Source: a virus
Taxonomy: Duplodnaviria > Heunggongvirae > Uroviricota > Caudoviricetes
Strand: one strand, 5' to 3'
Virus record (IMG/VR): IMGVR_UViG_2721755721_000005
DNA length: 48,167 bases
The notes beneath the pieces were generated by a model that saw only the letters and a list, made by a program, of their open reading frames with translations, was not told where the DNA came from and ran no database searches. This document shows, piece after piece, positions 22,194 through 31,301 of this stretch (the stretch's first letter is position 1; each line of letters opens with the position of its first letter). The position numbers and the translations under genes are program-made.

Positions 22194-22402
22194 ATCAGAA
22201 TGATATTGAAGCCATGATTCAGCGTTATACGGAAGCTGAAATGGCGGTGCTGGACGGAAAATCCGTCACTTTTAATGGTCAGCAGATGACCATGGAAAAC
22301 TTATCTGAGATCCGGCAGGGGCGGCAGGAGTGGGAGCGCCGCCTTGCGGCTCTGATTACACGACGACGGGGGCATCCCGGGTACCGGCTGGCGAGGTTCT
22401 GA
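22184..22402 (+). CDS. Head-tail joining protein gpW-like
   Basis: About 70-aa ORF overlapping the terminase stop and the portal start, as W does in lambda. Confidence 0.6.
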   Translation: MVMNQNDIEAMIQRYTEAEMAVLDGKSVTFNGQQMTMENLSEIRQGRQEWERRLAALITRRRGHPGYRLARF

Positions 22403-23910
22403 TGGCATTTCTTGATGATGTGATTGGCGTTTTTTCACCAGGATGGAAAGCGGCAAGGCTGCGTTCCCGTGCGGTGATCCAGGCTTATGAGGCCGTAAAA
22501 ACGACGCGGACACACAAAGCCCGACGGGAGAACCGAACTGCCGACCAGTTAAGCCAGTACGGGGCCGTGTCGTTACGTGAGCAGGCTCGTTACCTTGATA
22601 ACAACCACGATCTGGTCATTGGTGTATTTGACAAGCTGGAAGAACGGGTGGTGGGGAAAAACGGGATTATTGTCGAGCCACATCCGGTATTACGCAATGG
22701 GGCCATTGCCCGTGATCTGGCAGCGGAGATACGTACCCGATGGAGTGAATGGTCTGTCAGTCCGGAGGTCACCGGGCAGTTTACCCGTCCGATGCTGGAA
22801 CGTCTGATGCTGCGTACCTGGCTGCGCGATGGTGAGGTGTTTGCCCAGATGGTTTCCGGGCGCATAAACAGCCTGACGCCTTCTGCCGGTGTTCATTTCT
22901 GGCTGGAGGCGCTCGAGCCGGACTTTATTCCCATGACCAGTGATGAGAGCAACAGGCTGAATCAGGGCGTGTTTGTTGATGACTGGGGGCGTCCCGAAAA
23001 ATATCTGGTGTATAAAAGCCGTCCCGTATCCGGGCGGCAGATGGAAACCAAAGAAGTGGATGCAGAGCGAATGCTGCATCTTAAATTTGTTCGCCGTCTG
23101 CACCAGATGCGCGGGACGTCTTTGTTGTCCGGTGTGCTGATCCGCCTCAGTGCTCTGAAAGAGTATGAAGATTCTGAGCTGACTGCAGCAAGGATCGCCG
23201 CTGCTCTGGGGATGTACATCCGGAAAGGCGACGGGCAGAGCTATGAACCGGATGGTAATGGCAGCAAGGAGAATGAACGCGAGCTTACCATTCAGCCAGG
23301 CATTATTTACGACGATCTGAAACCCGGCGAAGAAATCGGAATGGTGAAGTCGGATCGTCCCAATCCTAACCTTGAAACTTTTCGTAATGGTCAGTTGCGT
23401 GCCGTGGCGGCGGGCAGTCGTCTGAGTTTTTCCAGTACGGCACGCAACTATAACGGCACTTACAGCGCCCAGCGTCAGGAACTGGTTGAGTCTACTGATG
23501 GCTACCTGATCCTGCAGGACTGGTTTATTGGTGCCGTCACCCGCCCGATGTATCGTGCCTGGCTGAAACAGGCTGTGGCATCCGGTGTTATCAGGCTACC
23601 CCGTGATCTTGACCGTTCTTCACTGTATACCGCGGTGTATTCCGGACCGGTGATGCCGTGGATTGACCCTGTTAAGGAGGCTGAGGCCTGGAAAATCCAG
23701 ATTCGTGGTGGAGCGGCGACAGAATCAGACTGGGTACGTGCTGGTGGTCGTAATCCGGATGATGTCAAACGTCGGCGCAAGGCCGAAATTGATGAAAACC
23801 GCAAGCTGGATCTGGTATTTGATACCGATCCGGCCAGTGATAAAGGAGGCAGCAGTGCCGCAACGAAACGACAGGAGCCGCAGCACACCGACGACCAGTC
23901 CGAAGAATAA
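22402..23910 (+). CDS. Portal protein (gpB-like)
   Basis: ATG overlaps the W stop (ATGA); about 500 aa, directly after terminase and W. Confidence 0.85.
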   Translation: MAFLDDVIGVFSPGWKAARLRSRAVIQAYEAVKTTRTHKARRENRTADQLSQYGAVSLREQARYLDNNHDLVIGVFDKLEERVVGKNGIIVEPHPVLRNGAIARDLAAEIRTRWSEWSVSPEVTGQFTRPMLERLMLRTWLRDGEVFAQMVSGRINSLTPSAGVHFWLEALEPDFIPMTSDESNRLNQGVFVDDWGRPEKYLVYKSRPVSGRQMETKEVDAERMLHLKFVRRLHQMRGTSLLSGVLIRLSALKEYEDSELTAARIAAALGMYIRKGDGQSYEPDGNGSKENERELTIQPGIIYDDLKPGEEIGMVKSDRPNPNLETFRNGQLRAVAAGSRLSFSSTARNYNGTYSAQRQELVESTDGYLILQDWFIGAVTRPMYRAWLKQAVASGVIRLPRDLDRSSLYTAVYSGPVMPWIDPVKEAEAWKIQIRGGAATESDWVRAGGRNPDDVKRRRKAEIDENRKLDLVFDTDPASDKGGSSAATKRQEPQHTDDQSEE

Positions 23911-25885
23911 TTCCTGGTTCAGGATGCAGGCTGGTCACCAGAGTGACGCGGATATTTATATTTATGACGAGATTGGTTTCTGGGGTGTTACAGCGAAGCA
24001 GTTTATCAGTGATCTGAATGCACTGGGCGATATCACCCACATTAATCTCCATATTAATTCACCGGGTGGCGATGTCTTTGAAGGCATCGCCATTTTTAAT
24101 GCGCTGAAAACACATGGTGCGTCCATTACCGTTTATGTCGACGGTGTGGCGGCGTCAATGGCGTCGGTCATTGCGATGGTGGGAAACCCGGTCATTATGC
24201 CGGAAAACACCTTCATGATGATTCATAAACCATTTGGCTTTACGGGCGGTGATGCGGAGGACATGCGCACCTATGCCGACCTGCTCGATAAGGTTGAGGC
24301 GGTTCTGTTACCCGCTTATGCACAGAAAACCGGGAAAACCACCGATGAAATTGCTGCCATGCTGGTGGATGAGACCTGGATGTCCGGTGCCGAATGTCTG
24401 GCACATGGATTTGCTGATCAGGTAACGCCAGCCGTTAAGGCAATGGCATGTATTCAGTCAAAACGTACAGAGGAATTTAAAAAGATGCCGGAATCCATTC
24501 GAAACATGATTACTCCGCCACGCAACAGTGCTCCACGCGTACAGGATGATGAACCTGCAGCCTCCCGGACGCCAGTGCAGGCAGCAGCAGCACCCGTGGT
24601 GGATGAAAACAGCATCCGTGCGCAGGTCCTGGCAGAGCAAAAAGCGCGTGTAAACGGTATTAATGATCTGTTTGCCATGTTTGGCGGGCGTTATCAGTCG
24701 CTGCAGGCTCAGTGTCTTGCCGATCCTGAATGTTCGCTGGAGCAGGCCCGCGAAAAGCTGTTGAACGAGATGGGGCACGAGTCCACGCCATCCAATAAAA
24801 ATACCCCGGCTCATATTTATGCCGGTAACGGTAATTTTGTGGGGGACGGGATCCGCCAGGCGCTGATGGCGCGTGCCGGATTTGAAAAAACCGAACGTGA
24901 TAATGTCTACAACGGGATGACCCTGCGTGAATATGCCCGTATGTCACTGACTGAACGGGGTATTGGGGTTTCCAGTTATAACCCGATGCAGATGGTCGGT
25001 GCGGCGTTCACACACAGTACGTCTGACTTCGGTAATATTCTGCTGGATGTTGCGAACAAAGCCATTCTGCAGGGCTGGGAAGATGCCCCTGAAACCTATG
25101 AACAGTGGACGCGGAAAGGTCAGTTGTCTGATTTTAAAATTGCCCATCGTGTGGGTATGGGGGGCTTCAGTGCTCTGCGTCAGGTGCGTGAAGGGGCGGA
25201 ATATAAATACGTCACCACCGGAGATAAACAGGCCACTATTGCACTGGCGACCTATGGCGAGCTGTTCAGTATCACCCGTCAGGCCATTATCAATGATGAT
25301 CTGAATATGCTGACCGATGTCCCGATGAAACTGGGCCGTGCGGCGAAATCCACTATTGCCGATCTGGTTTATGCCATTCTGACGTCTAACCCGAAAATCT
25401 CCACAGATAATGTAAGTCTGTTCGATAAAGCGAAACATGCAAACGTACTGGAGAGCGCTGCAATGGACGTGGCATCGCTGGATAAAGCCCGCCAGTTGAT
25501 GCGCGTTCAGAAAGAGGGGGAGCGTCATCTGAATATTCGTCCTGCGTTCGTACTGGTACCGACGGCGATGGAGTCTGTTGCTAACCAGGTCATTCGCTCC
25601 TCAAGTGTCAAGGGGGCTGACATTAACGCCGGTATTATTAACCCGGTGAAAGATTTTGCGACCGTTATTGCAGAGCCTCGTCTTGATGATAACAGCCAGA
25701 CCACCTTCTACCTGGCTGCGTCAAAAGGCTCCGATACGATTGAAGTGGCTTATCTCAACGGTGTGGATACGCCATATATTGATCAGATGGAGGGCTTCAG
25801 TGTGGATGGCGTGACAACGAAAGTGCGTATTGACGCCGGTGTCGCGCCAGTTGATCACCGCGGTCTGGTGAAATGTACGGCGTAA
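23855..25885 (+). CDS. Fused prohead protease (ClpP/S14-like) and HK97-fold major capsid protein
   Basis: GTG start with AAGGAGG SD. N-terminal region IYIYDEIGFWGV...INSPGGDVFEGIAIFNAL...VDGVAASMASVIAM is ClpP-like; the C-terminal ~330 aa is major-capsid-like. Confidence 0.8.
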   Translation: MPQRNDRSRSTPTTSPKNNSWFRMQAGHQSDADIYIYDEIGFWGVTAKQFISDLNALGDITHINLHINSPGGDVFEGIAIFNALKTHGASITVYVDGVAASMASVIAMVGNPVIMPENTFMMIHKPFGFTGGDAEDMRTYADLLDKVEAVLLPAYAQKTGKTTDEIAAMLVDETWMSGAECLAHGFADQVTPAVKAMACIQSKRTEEFKKMPESIRNMITPPRNSAPRVQDDEPAASRTPVQAAAAPVVDENSIRAQVLAEQKARVNGINDLFAMFGGRYQSLQAQCLADPECSLEQAREKLLNEMGHESTPSNKNTPAHIYAGNGNFVGDGIRQALMARAGFEKTERDNVYNGMTLREYARMSLTERGIGVSSYNPMQMVGAAFTHSTSDFGNILLDVANKAILQGWEDAPETYEQWTRKGQLSDFKIAHRVGMGGFSALRQVREGAEYKYVTTGDKQATIALATYGELFSITRQAIINDDLNMLTDVPMKLGRAAKSTIADLVYAILTSNPKISTDNVSLFDKAKHANVLESAAMDVASLDKARQLMRVQKEGERHLNIRPAFVLVPTAMESVANQVIRSSSVKGADINAGIINPVKDFATVIAEPRLDDNSQTTFYLAASKGSDTIEVAYLNGVDTPYIDQMEGFSVDGVTTKVRIDAGVAPVDHRGLVKCTA

Positions 25886-25907
25886 ACGTCGCAGACAACA
25901 ACTCTGA

Positions 25908-25928
25908 TGGCCCGTAAGGGCTTTTTTT
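25908..25928 (+). terminator. Weak hairpin plus T7 run after the capsid gene (possible attenuator)
   Basis: GGCCC-gtaa-GGGC followed by TTTTTTT; a second hairpin CAGCCCC-tgaa-CGGGGCTG at 25940-25958. Confidence 0.3.
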
Positions 25929-25971
25929 GTACCTGAAATCAGCCCCTGAACGGGGCTGTGCGGAGGCAGTT

Positions 25972-26295
25972 ATGGCAAAGAATTTTGTAGAAGAAGGAAA
26001 AACGGTGGCGATTGTTGCCAGTGCAGCCATCAGCAGCGGAGATCTGGTGCAGGTGGGTGATGTTTTTGCGGTGGCGCTGACCAATATTCCACAGGGTGAA
26101 ACAGGCGACGGCATGACCGAAGGTGTGTTTATGCTGCCTAAGCTGAAAACGGATGACATGAAAACGGGTAAGAAGGTTTATCTGAAGTCCGGAAAAGTTC
26201 AGCTGACTAACAGCGGCTCTGATCCGCTGGTCGGGGTTGTCTGGGCAGATGCCGGAACCAGTGCAGAAGAAGTGCCGGTAAAACTCAATGTCTGA
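25972..26295 (+). CDS. Small head protein (possible decoration or head-completion protein)
   Basis: 108 aa from an internal ATG with GGAGG SD; immediately after the capsid gene. Confidence 0.45.
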   Translation: MAKNFVEEGKTVAIVASAAISSGDLVQVGDVFAVALTNIPQGETGDGMTEGVFMLPKLKTDDMKTGKKVYLKSGKVQLTNSGSDPLVGVVWADAGTSAEEVPVKLNV

Positions 26296-26563
26296 TCCCT
26301 TTTCCCGGCTGGCAGCGCGTATGGATGCTATCACGGTCAGAAAGATGGGAAAGACAGCCTCGATTAATGATGTCGATATGACTGTGATCCCGGGAGAAAC
26401 ACTGGCAGAGCTGAATGCTCTGTCCGGACCTGCGGTCTCTCTGGTGGTGTTTTCTTCGGGATACCGCCCACGGCGCGGGGATCGCGTTGTTTATGACGGA
26501 CAACAATGGACGGTCACACGGCATGAACGTTTTAACGGTAAGCCAATGATCTTTATTGAGTAA
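26288..26563 (+). CDS. Head-tail connector/adaptor-like protein
   Basis: 91-aa ORF between the head genes and gpZ. Confidence 0.45.
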   Translation: MSDPFSRLAARMDAITVRKMGKTASINDVDMTVIPGETLAELNALSGPAVSLVVFSSGYRPRRGDRVVYDGQQWTVTRHERFNGKPMIFIE

Positions 26564-28349: not shown

Positions 28350-28548
28350 TGCAGGTGGAGAACATGATGTTTCTGAAACAGGGCTCGTTTAATTATGAAA
28401 AGCAGTCCGTGGTGCTCAGTGAGCTGTCCGGGCTGCAGAGAATTGAATATCTGGCGTTTGTTCGTAAGCGTAAACTGACCGCCGTATGTAGCCATCAGAC
28501 GAGAATTGGTAACTTAGACGCCCATCTGATATAGACGGACATCTAAGT

Positions 28549-28974
28549 ATGGAATTACAGGACTGGCGAAAAGAACCTCGTAAAAACTATTCGAATGAAT
28601 TCAAACTTCGTATGGTGGAACTGGCATCACAACCTGGAGCTTGTGTTGCACAGATTGCACGTGAAAATGGCGTCAATGATAATGTTATTTTCAAATGGCT
28701 CAGGCTCTGGCAGAACGAAGGGCGTGTTTCGCGGCGTCTTCCGGTAACGACCTCTTCTGACACTGGCGTTGAATTATTACCTGTAGAAATAACGCCGGAT
28801 GAGCAGAAAGAACCTGTGGCGGCCATTGCGCCGTCTTTATCCACTTCCACTCAGACCAGAGTCAGTGCCAGTTCCTGCAAGGTGGAATTCCGTCACGGTA
28901 ACATGACGCTGGAAAATCCATCGCCAGAGCTGCTCACAGTGTTGATCCGTGAACTGACCGGGAGGGGAAGATGA
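28549..28974 (+). CDS. IS66-family accessory protein TnpA (orf1)
   Basis: 141 aa; first ORF of the IS; HTH-like N-terminus. Confidence 0.8.
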   Translation: MELQDWRKEPRKNYSNEFKLRMVELASQPGACVAQIARENGVNDNVIFKWLRLWQNEGRVSRRLPVTTSSDTGVELLPVEITPDEQKEPVAAIAPSLSTSTQTRVSASSCKVEFRHGNMTLENPSPELLTVLIRELTGRGR

Positions 28975-29321
28975 TCTCACTCCCATCAGGTACCCGTATC
29001 TGGCTCGTTGCCGGCGTTACCGATATGCGTAAATCCTTCAACGGACTGGGAGAACAGGTACAACATGTGCTGAATGATAATCCCTTCTCCGGTCACCTGT
29101 TTATCTTCCGTGGCCGACGGGGTGACACCGTCAAAATTCTTTGGGCTGATGCTGATGGTCTGTGCCTGTTCACCAAACGCCTGGAGGAAGGCCAGTTTAT
29201 CTGGCCTGCGGTACGTGACGGCAAGGTATCCATTACCCGCTCGCAACTGGCAATGCTCCTCGATAAGCTGGACTGGCGTCAGCCAAAAACATCCAGCCGT
29301 AACTCACTGACAATGTTGTAA
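28971..29321 (+). CDS. IS66-family accessory protein TnpB (orf2)
   Basis: 116 aa; ATGA overlap with the tnpA stop; MISLPSGTRIWLVAGVTDMRKSFNGL pattern. Confidence 0.8.
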   Translation: MISLPSGTRIWLVAGVTDMRKSFNGLGEQVQHVLNDNPFSGHLFIFRGRRGDTVKILWADADGLCLFTKRLEEGQFIWPAVRDGKVSITRSQLAMLLDKLDWRQPKTSSRNSLTML

Positions 29322-29351
29322 AAAACTCCTGACCGCATTATAAAAACGGTC

Positions 29352-30965
29352 ATGAGTCAGAAATACCTCATTCGCATCGCAGAGCTGGAAAGGTTGCTCT
29401 CTGAGCAGGCTGAAGCCCTCCGTCAGAAAGACCAGCAACTGAGTCTGGTTGAAGAGACGGAAGCCTTCCTGCGCTCTGCACTGACACGTGCCGAAGAAAA
29501 GATCGAAGAAGATGAACGGGAAATAGAACATCTGCGGGCTCAGATAGAAAAACTGCGCCGGATGCTGTTCGGTACCCGTTCTGAAAAACTGCGTCGTGAA
29601 GTTGAACTGGCTGAGGCTCTGCTGAAACAACGTGAACAGGACAGCGATCGTTACAGTGGGCGGGAAGACGATCCTCAGGTTCCCCGCCAGTTGCGACAGT
29701 CGCGCCATCGTCGTCCGTTACCGGCACACCTTCCCCGTGAAATACACCGCCTGGAGCCAGAAGAAAGCTGTTGCCCGGAGTGTGGCGGTGAGCTGGATTA
29801 TCTGGGGGAAGTCAGCGCTGAACAGCTGGAACTGGTGAGCAGTGCCCTGAAAGTGATCCGCACAGAACGGGTAAAAAAAGCCTGTACAAAATGTGACTGT
29901 ATTGTTGAAGCACCGGCGCCGTCCCGCCCGATAGAGCGTGGTATCGCGGGCCCCGGATTACTTGCCCGCGTGTTAACGGGAAAATACTGCGAACATCTGC
30001 CACTGTATCGTCAGAGTGAAATCTTTGCCCGCCAGGGTGTCGAACTGAGCCGGGCCTTACTCTCCAACTGGGTTGACGCGTGCTGCCAGTTAATGACACC
30101 GGTGAATGATGCCCTGTACCGTTATGTAATGAACACCCGCAAGGTTCACACTGATGACACACCGGTAAAGGTACTGGCACCGGGTCAGAAAAAGGCGAAA
30201 ACAGGGCGTATCTGGACGTATGTCCGGGATGATCGCAATGTGGGTTCGTCATCTCCTCCAGCGGTCTGGTTCGCGTACTCGCCGAACCGGCAGGGGAAAC
30301 ACCCGGAGCAACACCTCCGCCCCTTCCGGGGTATCCTGCAGGCGGATGCGTTCACAGGTTACGACAGGTTGTTCAGTGCAGAACGTGAAGGTGGTGCACT
30401 GACAGAAGTTGCGTGCTGGGCCCATGCCCGGCGAAAAATCCACGATGTATACATCAGCAGCAAAAGTGCGACGGCAGAAGAAGCCCTGAAGCGAATCAGT
30501 GAACTGTACGCCATCGAGGATGAAATACGGGGATTACCGGAGTTAGAGCGTCTTGCCGTCAGGCAGCAGCGAAGCAAAGTGTTACTGACGTCGCTGCATG
30601 AATGGATGGTGGAGAAGAATGGTACGCTGTCGAAAAAATCCAGACTGGGCGAAGCGTTCAGCTATGTACTGAATCAGTGGGATGCCCTCTGTTATTACAG
30701 TGATGACGGTCTGGCGGAGGCGGATAATAATGCTGCGGAAAGAGCGCTTCGTGCAGTCTGTCTCGGAAAGAAAAACTTTATGTTCTTTGGCAGCGATCAC
30801 GGCGGCGAGCGTGGAGCACTGTTGTACGGGCTGATCGGCACCTGCCGTCTGAACGGTATCGATCCGGAAGCGTATCTGCGCCATATCCTGAGCGTACTGC
30901 CGGAATGGCCTTCCAACCGAGTTGATGAACTCCTGCCATGGAACGTAGTACTCACCAATAAATAA
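29352..30965 (+). CDS. IS66-family transposase TnpC (orf3)
   Basis: 537 aa; N-terminal leucine-zipper/coiled coil, CPECGG zinc motif, central DDE-type region. Confidence 0.85.
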   Translation: MSQKYLIRIAELERLLSEQAEALRQKDQQLSLVEETEAFLRSALTRAEEKIEEDEREIEHLRAQIEKLRRMLFGTRSEKLRREVELAEALLKQREQDSDRYSGREDDPQVPRQLRQSRHRRPLPAHLPREIHRLEPEESCCPECGGELDYLGEVSAEQLELVSSALKVIRTERVKKACTKCDCIVEAPAPSRPIERGIAGPGLLARVLTGKYCEHLPLYRQSEIFARQGVELSRALLSNWVDACCQLMTPVNDALYRYVMNTRKVHTDDTPVKVLAPGQKKAKTGRIWTYVRDDRNVGSSSPPAVWFAYSPNRQGKHPEQHLRPFRGILQADAFTGYDRLFSAEREGGALTEVACWAHARRKIHDVYISSKSATAEEALKRISELYAIEDEIRGLPELERLAVRQQRSKVLLTSLHEWMVEKNGTLSKKSRLGEAFSYVLNQWDALCYYSDDGLAEADNNAAERALRAVCLGKKNFMFFGSDHGGERGALLYGLIGTCRLNGIDPEAYLRHILSVLPEWPSNRVDELLPWNVVLTNK

Positions 30966-31301
30966 GCGTCAATACGGTGCTCCGTTGACGCTTACGTTTG
31001 TTCAGCAGCGAACGGCAAAGTTTGATGCCGAAGAGGGAGAACTGCCGGAGGCTGAACGACAGATTGCTTTTCTGCGGATGGGGATGGATATCAATGCCTG
31101 GCTGGTTTCCCGCTCACTGTGGAATGCGGAACAGTCTCAGGATGTTGAGACGCTTTGCGCATCCGTTATTACAACATGGTCGTATGATGCCCTGGGAGCG
31201 GGGGCGGAGATGGTTCTGTCGCTGAGCGGTATGGGAGCCATTGAGAATGCCGGGGATTTGGAGCATGAGGTGCTGACGCCGGAAAAGTCCTGACGCGGGA
31301 A

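What the first reader, a model, noticed from the sequence alone, without database searches (positions are those of the whole stretch)
23855..25885. Single ORF fusing a ClpP-like prohead protease to the major capsid protein
The N-terminal ~200 aa carry ClpP/S14 protease motifs, a Pro/Ala/Gln-rich linker follows, and the C-terminal half is capsid-like. A GTG start with a strong SD overlaps the portal 3' end. This implies autoproteolytic release of mature capsid protein without a separate scaffold gene, an arrangement worth confirming because it sets the mature capsid N-terminus.
Basis: partly seen in the sequence, partly recalled or inferred. Interest (0 to 1): 0.35.

Follow-up and report, generated by a model that had tools for sequence, protein, structure and literature searches.

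The report
Fused phage protease-scaffold-capsid gene
This is an intact copy of a well-known prophage gene that encodes the head protease, an assembly scaffold and the capsid shell protein as one chain (first studied in Salmonella phage Gifsy-2); the only new point is a conserved internal ribosome-binding site suggesting that a shorter, protease-less product is also made.

Summary
Window 23855..25885 (+) is one uninterrupted 676-codon ORF, starting at a GTG with a strong Shine-Dalgarno sequence and overlapping the portal gene by 56 nt. Residues ~19-195 are a ClpP-fold serine protease (Ser101 and His124 invariant). Residues ~375-676 are an HK97-fold capsid protein. The arrangement is already known. 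RefSeq annotates these exact coordinates as [quoted passage not shown] (NCBIfam NF045540, 984 bits vs cut-off 475). The region occurs in 2122 of 5426 complete E. coli genomes. The protein is 70% identical to the Gifsy-2 "tripartite capsid gene" product (Effantin 2010). Two refinements. The middle is not just a linker: a conserved helical, scaffold-like block (aa ~251-309) sits between two disordered, variable linkers that are the likely cleavage regions. Second, and not found in the literature I could search, an in-frame ATG (M211, 24485) preceded by GAGGA is conserved at the nucleotide level. Across 89 non-redundant homologues, 77 have an SD-preceded ATG in this linker zone versus ~20 expected. 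This suggests a nested 466-aa scaffold+capsid product, analogous to lambda C/Nu3. That part is inference only. This prophage also carries an insertion element in tail chaperone gene G.

The parts
23843..23849 (+). Shine-Dalgarno AAGGAGG for the GTG start
   Evidence: Sequence; duplex with the 16S 3' end -11.6 kcal/mol, the best of all in-frame start candidates.
23855..25885 (+). Tripartite gene: ClpP-like prohead protease, scaffold-like domain and major capsid protein (676 aa, 73.6 kDa predicted)
   Evidence: Uninterrupted ORF. NF045540 983.7 bits vs cut-off 475. PHROG 133. RefSeq CDS at the same coordinates. 70% identity to the Gifsy-2 gene product. Mass.
23909..24439 (+). ClpP-fold serine protease domain (aa ~19-195). 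Ser101 codon 24155-24157; His124 codon 24224-24226; Glu173 (24371-24373) sits at the position of the ClpP catalytic Asp.
   Evidence: Pfam PF00574 aa 31-191. S101 and H124 invariant in 27- and 33-sequence alignments spanning 35-96% identity. E173 aligns with the Asp of 'RDNW' in S. pneumoniae ClpP. Foldseek TM ~0.8 to ClpP structures.
24470..24487 (+). Candidate internal translation start: GAGGA (24470-24474), A/T-rich 10-nt spacer, ATG 24485-24487 (Met211)
   Evidence: Duplex -6.0 kcal/mol. The codon 5 positions before the Met ends in G in 29/29 homologues vs 0.44 gene-wide usage, and the amino-acid changes there preserve AGGA/GGAG. Replicated in a second locus set. Composition control. Inferred, not demonstrated.
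24485..25885 (+). Predicted nested in-frame product: scaffold + capsid without protease (aa 211-676, 466 aa, 50.7 kDa)
   Evidence: Inference. Protease-less homologues P0166 (443 aa) and P0229 (468 aa) begin 'MP.S' aligned exactly on M211-P212. NF045541 shares the module from aa ~222 onward.
24512..24607 (+). Variable Pro/Ala/Gln-rich disordered linker 1 (aa ~220-251); candidate cleavage region
   Evidence: Poorly conserved and gap-rich in alignments; pLDDT <50.
24605..24781 (+). Conserved helical scaffold-like (delta-domain-like) block (aa ~251-309)
   Evidence: Helices 251-274, 281-289 and 295-307 in the model. R265 invariant and F273, A298, L303 at least 90% conserved. No Pfam family matches it.
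24782..24832 (+). Variable disordered linker 2 (aa ~310-326); the most likely region for the cut that frees the capsid protein
   Evidence: pLDDT <50; variable and gapped in alignments. The cleavage position itself is not determined.
24836..25882 (+). Capsid protein region: conserved N-terminal helices (aa ~328-372) plus HK97-fold core (aa ~375-676)
   Evidence: Pfam PF25209 aa 378-673, E 1.6e-54, and weak PF10124 Mu-like_gpT. Foldseek hits only to HK97-fold shells, E down to 1e-7. Weak sequence hits to Mu GpT-domain capsid structures 8rkx/8rkc.
25909..25929 (+). Terminator-like hairpin (GGCCC-GUAA-GGGCU) followed by T7, just after the stop codon
   Evidence: Consensus scan. Only 5 bp of stem, and the fold is not significantly better than shuffles. 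Function not tested.
22402..23910 (+). Lambda-family portal gene whose 3' end overlaps the fusion gene
   Evidence: TIGR01539 455.7 bits and PF05136; RefSeq start maps to 22402.
25972..26295 (+). Head decoration (cement) protein, 107 aa
   Evidence: PF09956 E 2e-20 and PHROG 122 'head decoration'; 60% identical to the Gifsy-2 homologue.

Best explanation
The gene at 23855-25885 is an orthologue of the Gifsy-2 'tripartite capsid gene'. One ORF encodes, in order, a ClpP-fold serine protease (aa ~19-195), a scaffold-like helical domain flanked by two flexible linkers (aa ~211-327), and an HK97-fold major capsid protein (aa ~328/375-676). Likely mechanism: translation starts at GTG 23855 (shown by sequence and comparison). 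The chains co-assemble on the portal into a T=7 procapsid, with the protease and scaffold parts inside. The Ser101/His124 protease then cuts in the linkers, the N-terminal parts are degraded and leave, and the shell expands and is stabilised by the product of the next gene, a trimeric decoration protein. These assembly steps are inferred from the Gifsy-2, HK97 and lambda precedents. In addition, I infer that a conserved internal ribosome-binding site (GAGGA-N10-ATG at 24470-24487, Met211) yields a second, protease-less 466-aa scaffold+capsid chain. Shells would then be built from a mixture in which only some subunits carry the protease, analogous to the nested lambda C/Nu3 genes. Confidence is about 0.95 for the identity and general mechanism and about 0.65-0.7 for the internal start. 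In this particular prophage the gene is intact, but the element is probably unable to make tails because an insertion element disrupts gene G.
For: Identity: NF045540 983.7 bits vs 475; PHROG 133; RefSeq annotation at identical coordinates; present in 2122/5426 complete E. coli genomes; 70% identity over aa 18-675 to the Gifsy-2 gene and 60% for the adjacent decoration protein. Literature: PMC12315714 (Gifsy-2 protease and coat genes fused), PMC8538268 (Gifsy-2 trimeric decoration protein at 3-fold axes), PMC8508860 (same single-gene arrangement in Pseudomonas phage MD8). Domains. Start codon. More than 100 clusters at 50% identity keep the full-length architecture. Internal start: in 31 class-1 genes the DNA 11-15 nt upstream of the conserved Met is GAGGA, CAGGAG, AAGGA or GGAGA although the amino acids differ, with a G-ending codon in 29/29 cases vs 0.44 expected. 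In 7 distant genes lacking that Met, a single linker ATG lies 5-9 nt after GGAG/GAGG. Replication: 46/55 genes vs 10.7 expected. Composition-matched control: 77/89 vs 19.5 expected, null maximum 36 in 20,000 draws. Protease-less homologues start exactly at M211-P212. The sister family NF045541, with a different protease, has GAGG-N8-ATG at the same boundary in phage LPPA33.
Against: No experimental data for this gene were available; processing sites and the mature N-terminus are not determined. For the internal start: in the window's clade the SD is modest (-6.0 kcal/mol) and the spacing is long (11 nt from GAGG to ATG). Per-gene synonymous resampling is weak (p ~0.25 each; Fisher p 0.005), and the sequences are not phylogenetically independent. 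About 12 of 89 genes show no qualifying ATG (GTG and TTG were not examined). The genomic context of the protease-less homologues could not be fetched, so they may be gene calls rather than separate genes. I could not read the primary Gifsy-2 paper, so I do not know whether it reports one or two precursor species. An SD-like sequence could also be a relic of an ancestral gene boundary.
Confidence: 0.9

Rival explanations
1. The gene is expressed only as the full-length 676-aa polyprotein, so every shell subunit brings its own protease. The SD-like sequence plus ATG in the linker is a non-functional relic of an ancient protease/capsid gene boundary, or a translational pause site.
For: The GTG start has a much stronger SD (-11.6) than the internal ATG (-6.0, long spacing). 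The published descriptions I could read speak of a single fused gene. Per-gene synonymous tests are individually weak.
Against: A relic should decay, yet the signal persists from 99% down to ~38% identity. When the Met at the 'xxMP' position is lost, a new SD+ATG appears further into the linker. ATGs in the zone are SD-preceded about 4 times more often than the zone's own SD density predicts. The third-position G is kept in 29/29 cases.
Confidence: 0.25
2. Translation starts at ATG 23924 (653 aa), just after the portal stop codon, rather than at the overlapping GTG 23855.
For: ATG is the commoner start codon and it avoids the 56-nt overlap. The NCBIfam and Pfam profile matches begin at aa 31-32.
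Against: The SD upstream is weak (-2.7 kcal/mol vs -11.6). Met24 lies inside the conserved N-terminal motif K-x-W-Y/F-x-I-K-A. Homologues' own N-termini align 2-6 residues upstream of window W21, and similarity to Gifsy-2 and to Pseudomonas and Vibrio phage proteins begins at aa 1-18.
Confidence: 0.08
3. The single ORF is an artefact: two genes (protease and capsid) joined by a sequencing error.
For: None found. Frameshift artefacts do occur nearby in other assemblies, giving 1159-aa portal fusions.
Against: The same uninterrupted ORF is present at 95% identity or more in about 1870 complete genomes, in phage Tritos and Gifsy-2, and in more than 100 divergent clusters as one continuous match. 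The curated family is defined by the fusion.
Confidence: 0.01

Closest known systems
Salmonella phage Gifsy-2 tripartite capsid gene (STM1034.3n in NC_010393; Effantin et al. 2010, Virology 402:355)
   Same: Same three-part order in one ORF, same size (696 vs 676 aa), 70% identity over aa 18-675. Same neighbours: a lambda-type portal upstream with an overlapping start, and a 107-aa decoration protein downstream (60% identical). The GAGGAG-N10-ATG 'EEFEHMP' internal site is also present (-8.8 kcal/mol).
   Different: The first ~17-27 residues and both linkers differ. The host differs (E. coli). The copy in this window sits in a prophage with an insertion element in gene G.
NCBIfam NF045540 'ClpP-like prohead protease/major capsid protein fusion protein' / PHROG 133
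   Same: Full-length match far above the curated cut-off; the RefSeq product name is identical.
   Different: Nothing of note; it is a typical member. The family annotation does not mention a nested product.
Phage lambda C / Nu3 (also Mu I/Z): a protease gene with an in-frame nested scaffold gene
   Same: Protease at the N-terminus and scaffold downstream in the same frame. An internal SD+ATG would give a protease-less product sharing the C-terminus. The neighbouring head genes are lambda-like (gpA-type terminase, gpW-like protein, lambda-family portal, trimeric decoration protein).
   Different: In lambda the capsid protein gpE is a separate gene and the protease is of the S49 type. Here the capsid protein is part of the same ORF. 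The internal start here is inferred only. The lambda facts are from established knowledge (Shaw & Murialdo 1980, cited in PMC8508860).
Phage HK97 gp4 protease and gp5 (delta domain + capsid protein)
   Same: No separate scaffold protein: an N-terminal helical domain of the capsid precursor acts as scaffold and is removed by the protease. The predicted nested 466-aa product has the same layout as gp5. The capsid domain has the HK97 fold.
   Different: The HK97 protease is a separate gene of a different family (no Pfam hit here). The capsid sequence family differs (PF25209 with weak Mu gpT similarity). Stabilisation is presumably by a decoration protein rather than by HK97-type covalent cross-links; cross-linking was not tested.
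NF045541 'prohead protease/major capsid protein fusion protein' (e.g. Pseudomonas phage LPPA33) and Pseudomonas phage MD8 gp5
   Same: The scaffold+capsid module is homologous from window aa ~222 onward (399 bits). It is also fused to a protease, and there is also an SD+ATG at the domain boundary.
   Different: In NF045541 the protease domain is unrelated to ClpP. The window protein scores below that family's cut-off (399 vs 525).

Membership tests
NF045540 ClpP-like prohead protease/major capsid fusion (Gifsy-2-type tripartite capsid gene) | Full-length profile match above the curated cut-off | tested here: met
   983.7 bits vs cut-off 475, aa 32-675 on profile positions 2-651 of 652.
NF045540 ClpP-like prohead protease/major capsid fusion (Gifsy-2-type tripartite capsid gene) | Protease and capsid domains in one uninterrupted reading frame | tested here: met
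   No stop codon between 23654 and 25883; the same holds in thousands of genomes.
NF045540 ClpP-like prohead protease/major capsid fusion (Gifsy-2-type tripartite capsid gene) | N-terminal ClpP-fold domain with catalytic Ser and His | tested here: met
   PF00574 E 8e-36; S101 and H124 invariant; Foldseek TM ~0.8 to ClpP.
NF045540 ClpP-like prohead protease/major capsid fusion (Gifsy-2-type tripartite capsid gene) | C-terminal HK97-fold major capsid domain | tested here: met
   PF25209 E 1.6e-54; the model of aa 250-676 (pLDDT 75.6) matches only HK97-fold shells.
NF045540 ClpP-like prohead protease/major capsid fusion (Gifsy-2-type tripartite capsid gene) | Head-module context: after the portal gene, before a small decoration protein, with no separate scaffold or capsid gene | tested here: met
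   same gene order as Gifsy-2.
NF045540 ClpP-like prohead protease/major capsid fusion (Gifsy-2-type tripartite capsid gene) | Proteolytic processing to a mature capsid protein that forms T=7 shells | not testable with these tools
   Requires particles, mass spectrometry or cryo-EM. Inferred from 70% identity to the Gifsy-2 gene product.
Cellular ATP-dependent ClpP (TIGR00493 and related equivalogs) | Score above the equivalog cut-off | tested here: not met
   58.6 bits vs cut-off 308.6; other ClpP models are likewise far below cut-off. It has the ClpP fold but is not a cellular ClpP.
HK97 gp4/gp5 families | Sequence membership in the HK97 prohead protease family and the HK97-type Phage_capsid family | tested here: not met
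   Neither family appears among the Pfam hits at E <= 0.01. The resemblance is in fold and in assembly logic only.
Nested protease/scaffold genes (lambda C/Nu3 type) | Conserved in-frame internal start codon with a ribosome-binding site downstream of the protease domain | tested here: met
   77/89 homologues vs 19.5 expected; third-position G in 29/29 cases; the site relocates in distant clades. This is sequence evidence only.
Nested protease/scaffold genes (lambda C/Nu3 type) | Two protein products sharing a C-terminus are actually made | not testable with these tools
   Needs western blot, N-terminal sequencing or initiation-site ribosome profiling.

The most novel reading that the evidence does not exclude
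Gifsy-2-type tripartite capsid genes are not simple polyprotein genes. A conserved internal ribosome-binding site (here GAGGA-N10-ATG, Met211) makes a second, protease-less scaffold+capsid chain from the same frame. The ratio of protease-bearing to protease-free shell subunits would then be set by translation initiation. This would extend the lambda C/Nu3 nested-gene principle to a gene that also contains the capsid protein, and I did not find it described in the literature I could search.
Probability: 0.45. Interest if true: 0.5.

Novelty: already known. Interest (0 to 1): 0.27.

Why it matters
As posed, the finding matters little. The fused protease-scaffold-capsid gene is a curated family, is annotated as such in about 40% of complete E. 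coli genomes, and has been studied in Gifsy-2. Its practical value is for annotation: the GTG start at 23855 is better supported than the ATG starts used in some records. The gene should be called a capsid precursor, not "Clp protease ClpP" or "ATP-dependent Clp protease". The conserved internal start is the one point with research value. If real, it changes the assembly model from "every subunit carries a protease" to a tunable mixture of two chains. It would explain how such phages avoid packing about 415 protease domains into one procapsid. It can be tested directly with a few point mutations in Gifsy-2 or phage Tritos.

Tried and rejected
(1) Reading the primary Gifsy-2 paper: not held. 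I relied on citing papers and on memory of the abstract, so the published mature N-terminus could not be mapped onto this protein.
(2) Programmed frameshift joining portal and protease: 1159-aa portal+protease+capsid ORFs exist in other assemblies, but the two I examined have different single-base deletions. They are sporadic mutations or sequencing errors; rejected.
(3) Sequence search of solved structures for the capsid part: only weak hits to Mu GpT-domain capsids (E 2e-4). No close solved relative.
(4) Pfam search of the middle region alone (aa 200-377): nothing significant. Its scaffold role rests on position, helicity and conservation.
(5) Foldseek with the full-length model returned only ClpP hits, so a second model of aa 250-676 was needed.
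(6) Genomic context of the protease-less homologues P0166 and P0229: not retrievable.
(7) Phage LPPA33 was expected to be an unfused example. It is instead a fused gene of the sister family NF045541.
(8) Literature searches for an internal start in such fused genes found nothing relevant. Absence from this library is not proof of novelty.
(9) Internal start candidates other than M211, for example M137 with GGAGG, lie inside the protease fold with a 3-nt spacing. I did not check their conservation and did not pursue them.
Full report
OBSERVATION. The window between 23654 and 25885 is open in one frame. It is preceded by AAGGAGG (23843-23849) with a 5-nt spacer. The computed duplex with the 16S rRNA 3' end is -11.6 kcal/mol, the strongest of any in-frame start candidate. 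The next candidate, ATG 23924, scores -2.7. The lambda-family portal gene upstream (TIGR01539, 456 bits) ends at 23910, so the two genes overlap by 56 nt in different frames.

WHAT IT IS. Pfam finds CLP_protease at aa 31-191 (E 8e-36) and Phage_capsid_4 at aa 378-673 (E 1.6e-54), plus a weak Mu-like gpT match. NCBIfam model NF045540, [quoted passage not shown], matches end to end at 983.7 bits against a curated cut-off of 475. PHROG 133 matches at 1202 bits. A megablast of 23600-26300 against complete E. coli genomes finds the region in 2122 of 5426 genomes. RefSeq annotates a CDS (WP_001583540.1) whose coordinates map exactly to 23855..25885, with that product name. Escherichia phage Tritos carries a 99.3% identical copy.

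The experimentally studied relative is the Salmonella phage Gifsy-2 gene at 22471-24561 of NC_010393. Its product is 70% identical over aa 18-675, and the adjacent 107-aa decoration protein is 60% identical. The primary paper (Effantin et al. 2010, Virology 402:355) is not held in the library. [quoted passage not shown] The same single-gene protease-scaffold-capsid arrangement has been described for Pseudomonas phage MD8 (PMC8508860). It is also called a common feature of several small actinophage clusters (PMC7302621). An exhaustive HMMER search shows more than 100 clusters at 50% identity, 640-740 aa long, that match aa ~18-673 in one stretch. The arrangement is therefore real, widespread and already known.

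ANATOMY. I used two alignments, of 27 sequences (35-70% identity to the window protein) and 33 sequences (42-96%).
(a) Nearly all homologues begin 2-6 residues before a conserved K-x-W-Y/F-x-I-K-A motif (window aa 19-26). ATG 23924 is Met24 inside that motif, and GTG 23855 is the only start codon between the strong SD and the motif. The GTG start is therefore well supported. The ATG at 23762 used in the Tritos record would add 93 nt more overlap with the portal gene, and I found nothing that favours it.
(b) Ser101 (24155-24157) and His124 (24224-24226) are invariant. Glu173 occupies the position of the ClpP catalytic Asp and is at least 90% conserved.
(c) After the protease comes "EEFKKMP" (Met211-Pro212; Pro212 invariant or nearly so), then a variable Pro/Ala/Gln-rich stretch (aa ~220-251).
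(d) A conserved block follows at aa ~251-309 (R265 invariant; F273, A298, L303 at least 90% conserved).
(e) A second variable stretch lies at aa ~310-326.
(f) Conserved sequence then runs to the C-terminus.
AlphaFold2 models agree with this layout. The full-length model has mean pLDDT 68 and the aa 250-676 model has 75.6. The protease and capsid parts are confident, three helices span 251-307, and aa 1-18, 220-251 and 310-326 are disordered. Foldseek matches the N-terminal domain to ClpP structures (target-normalised TM ~0.8). It matches the C-terminal model only to HK97-fold shells: encapsulins, T5 pb8, SaPI1/80alpha, SU10, NF5 and XM1, with E down to 1e-7. By sequence, the nearest solved capsids are Mu GpT-domain proteins, and only weakly. 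The middle region has no Pfam family. That is the layout expected of a built-in scaffold like the HK97 delta domain, with the two flexible segments as the likely cleavage regions. The exact mature N-terminus cannot be determined here. Cuts at 310, 327 or 372 would give 39.9, 38.2 or 33.1 kDa.

A CONSERVED INTERNAL START (new inference). In the first alignment, many distant homologues had a lone Met in the variable linker preceded by Glu- or Gly-rich residues. I fetched DNA for 80 viral loci and analysed 40 genes with less than 85% mutual identity. In 31 of them (class 1, down to ~47% identity to the window) the Met of "xxMP" is conserved. The DNA 11-15 nt upstream is GAGGA (20 genes), CAGGAG (5), AAGGA (4) or GGAGA (2). 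The amino acids there differ (EE, ED, QE, KD, KE, GD), but the substitutions are exactly those that keep AGGA or GGAG. The first of these codons ends in G in 29 of 29 cases, although G-ending codons for those amino acids are used only 44% of the time in the same genes. In 7 more distant genes (class 2) the Met is replaced by Ile or Thr. In each, a single ATG 20-40 codons further into the linker lies 5-9 nt after GGAG, GAGG or AGGAG.

I repeated the test with fixed criteria on 80 loci from bacterial genomes, seeded with the distant homologues. Of 55 non-redundant genes, 46 have a linker ATG with a duplex of -5.5 kcal/mol or better. Equal-sized zones elsewhere in the same genes predict 10.7, and the maximum in 20,000 null draws was 25. 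Many class-2 sites are canonical, for example AAGGAGG-N8-ATG. The linker is purine-rich, so I also compared against the zone's own density of SD-like sequence, which is 15% of positions. On that control, 77 of 89 genes qualify versus 19.5 expected, with a null maximum of 36.

Two further observations fit. Protease-less homologues P0166 (443 aa) and P0229 (468 aa) start "MPPS" and "MPKS", aligned exactly on Met211-Pro212. The sister family NF045541 fuses an unrelated protease to the same scaffold+capsid module, and in phage LPPA33 it has GAGG-N8-ATG at the same boundary. In the window the site is GAGGAATTTAAAAAGATG (24470-24487), with an energy of -6.0 kcal/mol and an A/T-rich spacer. The nested product would be 466 aa and 50.7 kDa.

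Caveats. The spacing in class 1 is long (11 nt from GAGG to ATG). Per-gene synonymous resampling is weak (p ~0.25 each; Fisher p 0.005). The sequences are related by descent. About 12 genes lack a qualifying ATG. Nothing here shows that the shorter protein is made.

MECHANISM. Shown by sequence and comparison: one ORF; a GTG start; a ClpP-fold Ser/His protease; a conserved helical middle domain between two flexible linkers; an HK97-fold capsid domain; and a lambda-like head module with a decoration protein and no separate scaffold gene. Inferred from the Gifsy-2, HK97 and lambda precedents: the chains assemble on the portal into a T=7 procapsid with protease and scaffold inside. The protease cuts in the linkers, the fragments leave, and the shell expands and is cemented by decoration-protein trimers. 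Inferred from nucleotide conservation (about 0.65-0.7): a second initiation at Met211 supplies protease-free scaffold+capsid chains, so that only a fraction of subunits carry the protease. This is the logic of lambda C/Nu3 and of the separate HK97 gp4.

COMPARISON AND NOVELTY. The gene meets every testable defining feature of NF045540 and the Gifsy-2-type tripartite capsid gene. It is not a cellular ClpP: TIGR00493 scores 58.6 bits against a cut-off of 308.6. It is not a sequence-family member of HK97 gp4 or gp5. The finding as posed is already known, and interest is low. The internal start is a modest but testable addition.

CONTEXT. Compared with the uninterrupted prophage of E. coli strain 1943, the window carries a 2531-bp insertion at 28464-30994. 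The insertion has three IS66-like ORFs and lies about 97 nt into tail assembly chaperone gene G. This copy of the prophage is therefore probably unable to complete tails, although its head genes are intact.

Noticed in passing
window 28464-30994: A 2531-bp insertion relative to the otherwise 99.99% identical prophage of E. coli strain 1943. It has an 8-9 bp target duplication and three ORFs in IS66-family layout (28549-28974, 28971-29321, 29352-30965). It sits about 97 nt into tail assembly chaperone gene G, so the prophage is probably tail-defective.
   Followed up: partly
L004 ~2950-2960 and L005 ~2770-2775 (window ~23883 and ~23674): Several public assemblies encode a single 1159-aa portal+protease+capsid ORF. 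The two examined have different single-base deletions in the stretch where the protease frame is already open upstream of the GTG. These are sporadic frameshifts or sequencing errors, not a programmed event.
   Followed up: yes
window 25909-25929: Short hairpin GGCCC-GUAA-GGGCU followed by TTTTTTT, 24 nt after the capsid gene's stop codon and before the decoration gene. It is terminator-like or an mRNA-stabilising hairpin. The stem is only 5 bp and the fold is not significantly better than shuffles.
   Followed up: partly
window 23762 / 23855 / 23924; L002 4398: Public records disagree on the start of this gene. The phage Tritos record and a 146-member NCBI cluster (707 aa, named 'Clp protease ClpP') use the ATG at window 23762, while PGAP uses GTG 23855. 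Many records name the whole capsid precursor 'ATP-dependent Clp protease proteolytic subunit', which is misleading.
   Followed up: partly
window 26288-26563: The 91-aa ORF after the decoration gene is named 'DNA breaking-rejoining protein' by RefSeq and falls in the Pfam 'Gifsy-2' family, which is described as an ATP-binding sugar transporter. PHROG 153 calls it a minor tail protein and the Tritos record calls it a head completion protein. The RefSeq and Pfam names look like legacy misnomers for a head-tail connector protein.
   Followed up: no
L234 2338-4326 (Pseudomonas phage LPPA33): This fused gene of the sister family NF045541 (different, non-ClpP protease) shares the scaffold+capsid module from window aa ~222 onward. 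It also has GAGG-N8-ATG in its linker (aa 213). This suggests protease-domain swapping at a fixed module boundary that coincides with the putative internal start.
   Followed up: partly
P0166, P0229 (no window coordinates): Protease-less homologues of 443 and 468 aa begin 'MPPS' and 'MPKS', aligned exactly on window Met211-Pro212. Whether they are stand-alone genes downstream of a separate protease gene or gene calls at the internal start could not be determined.
   Followed up: partly
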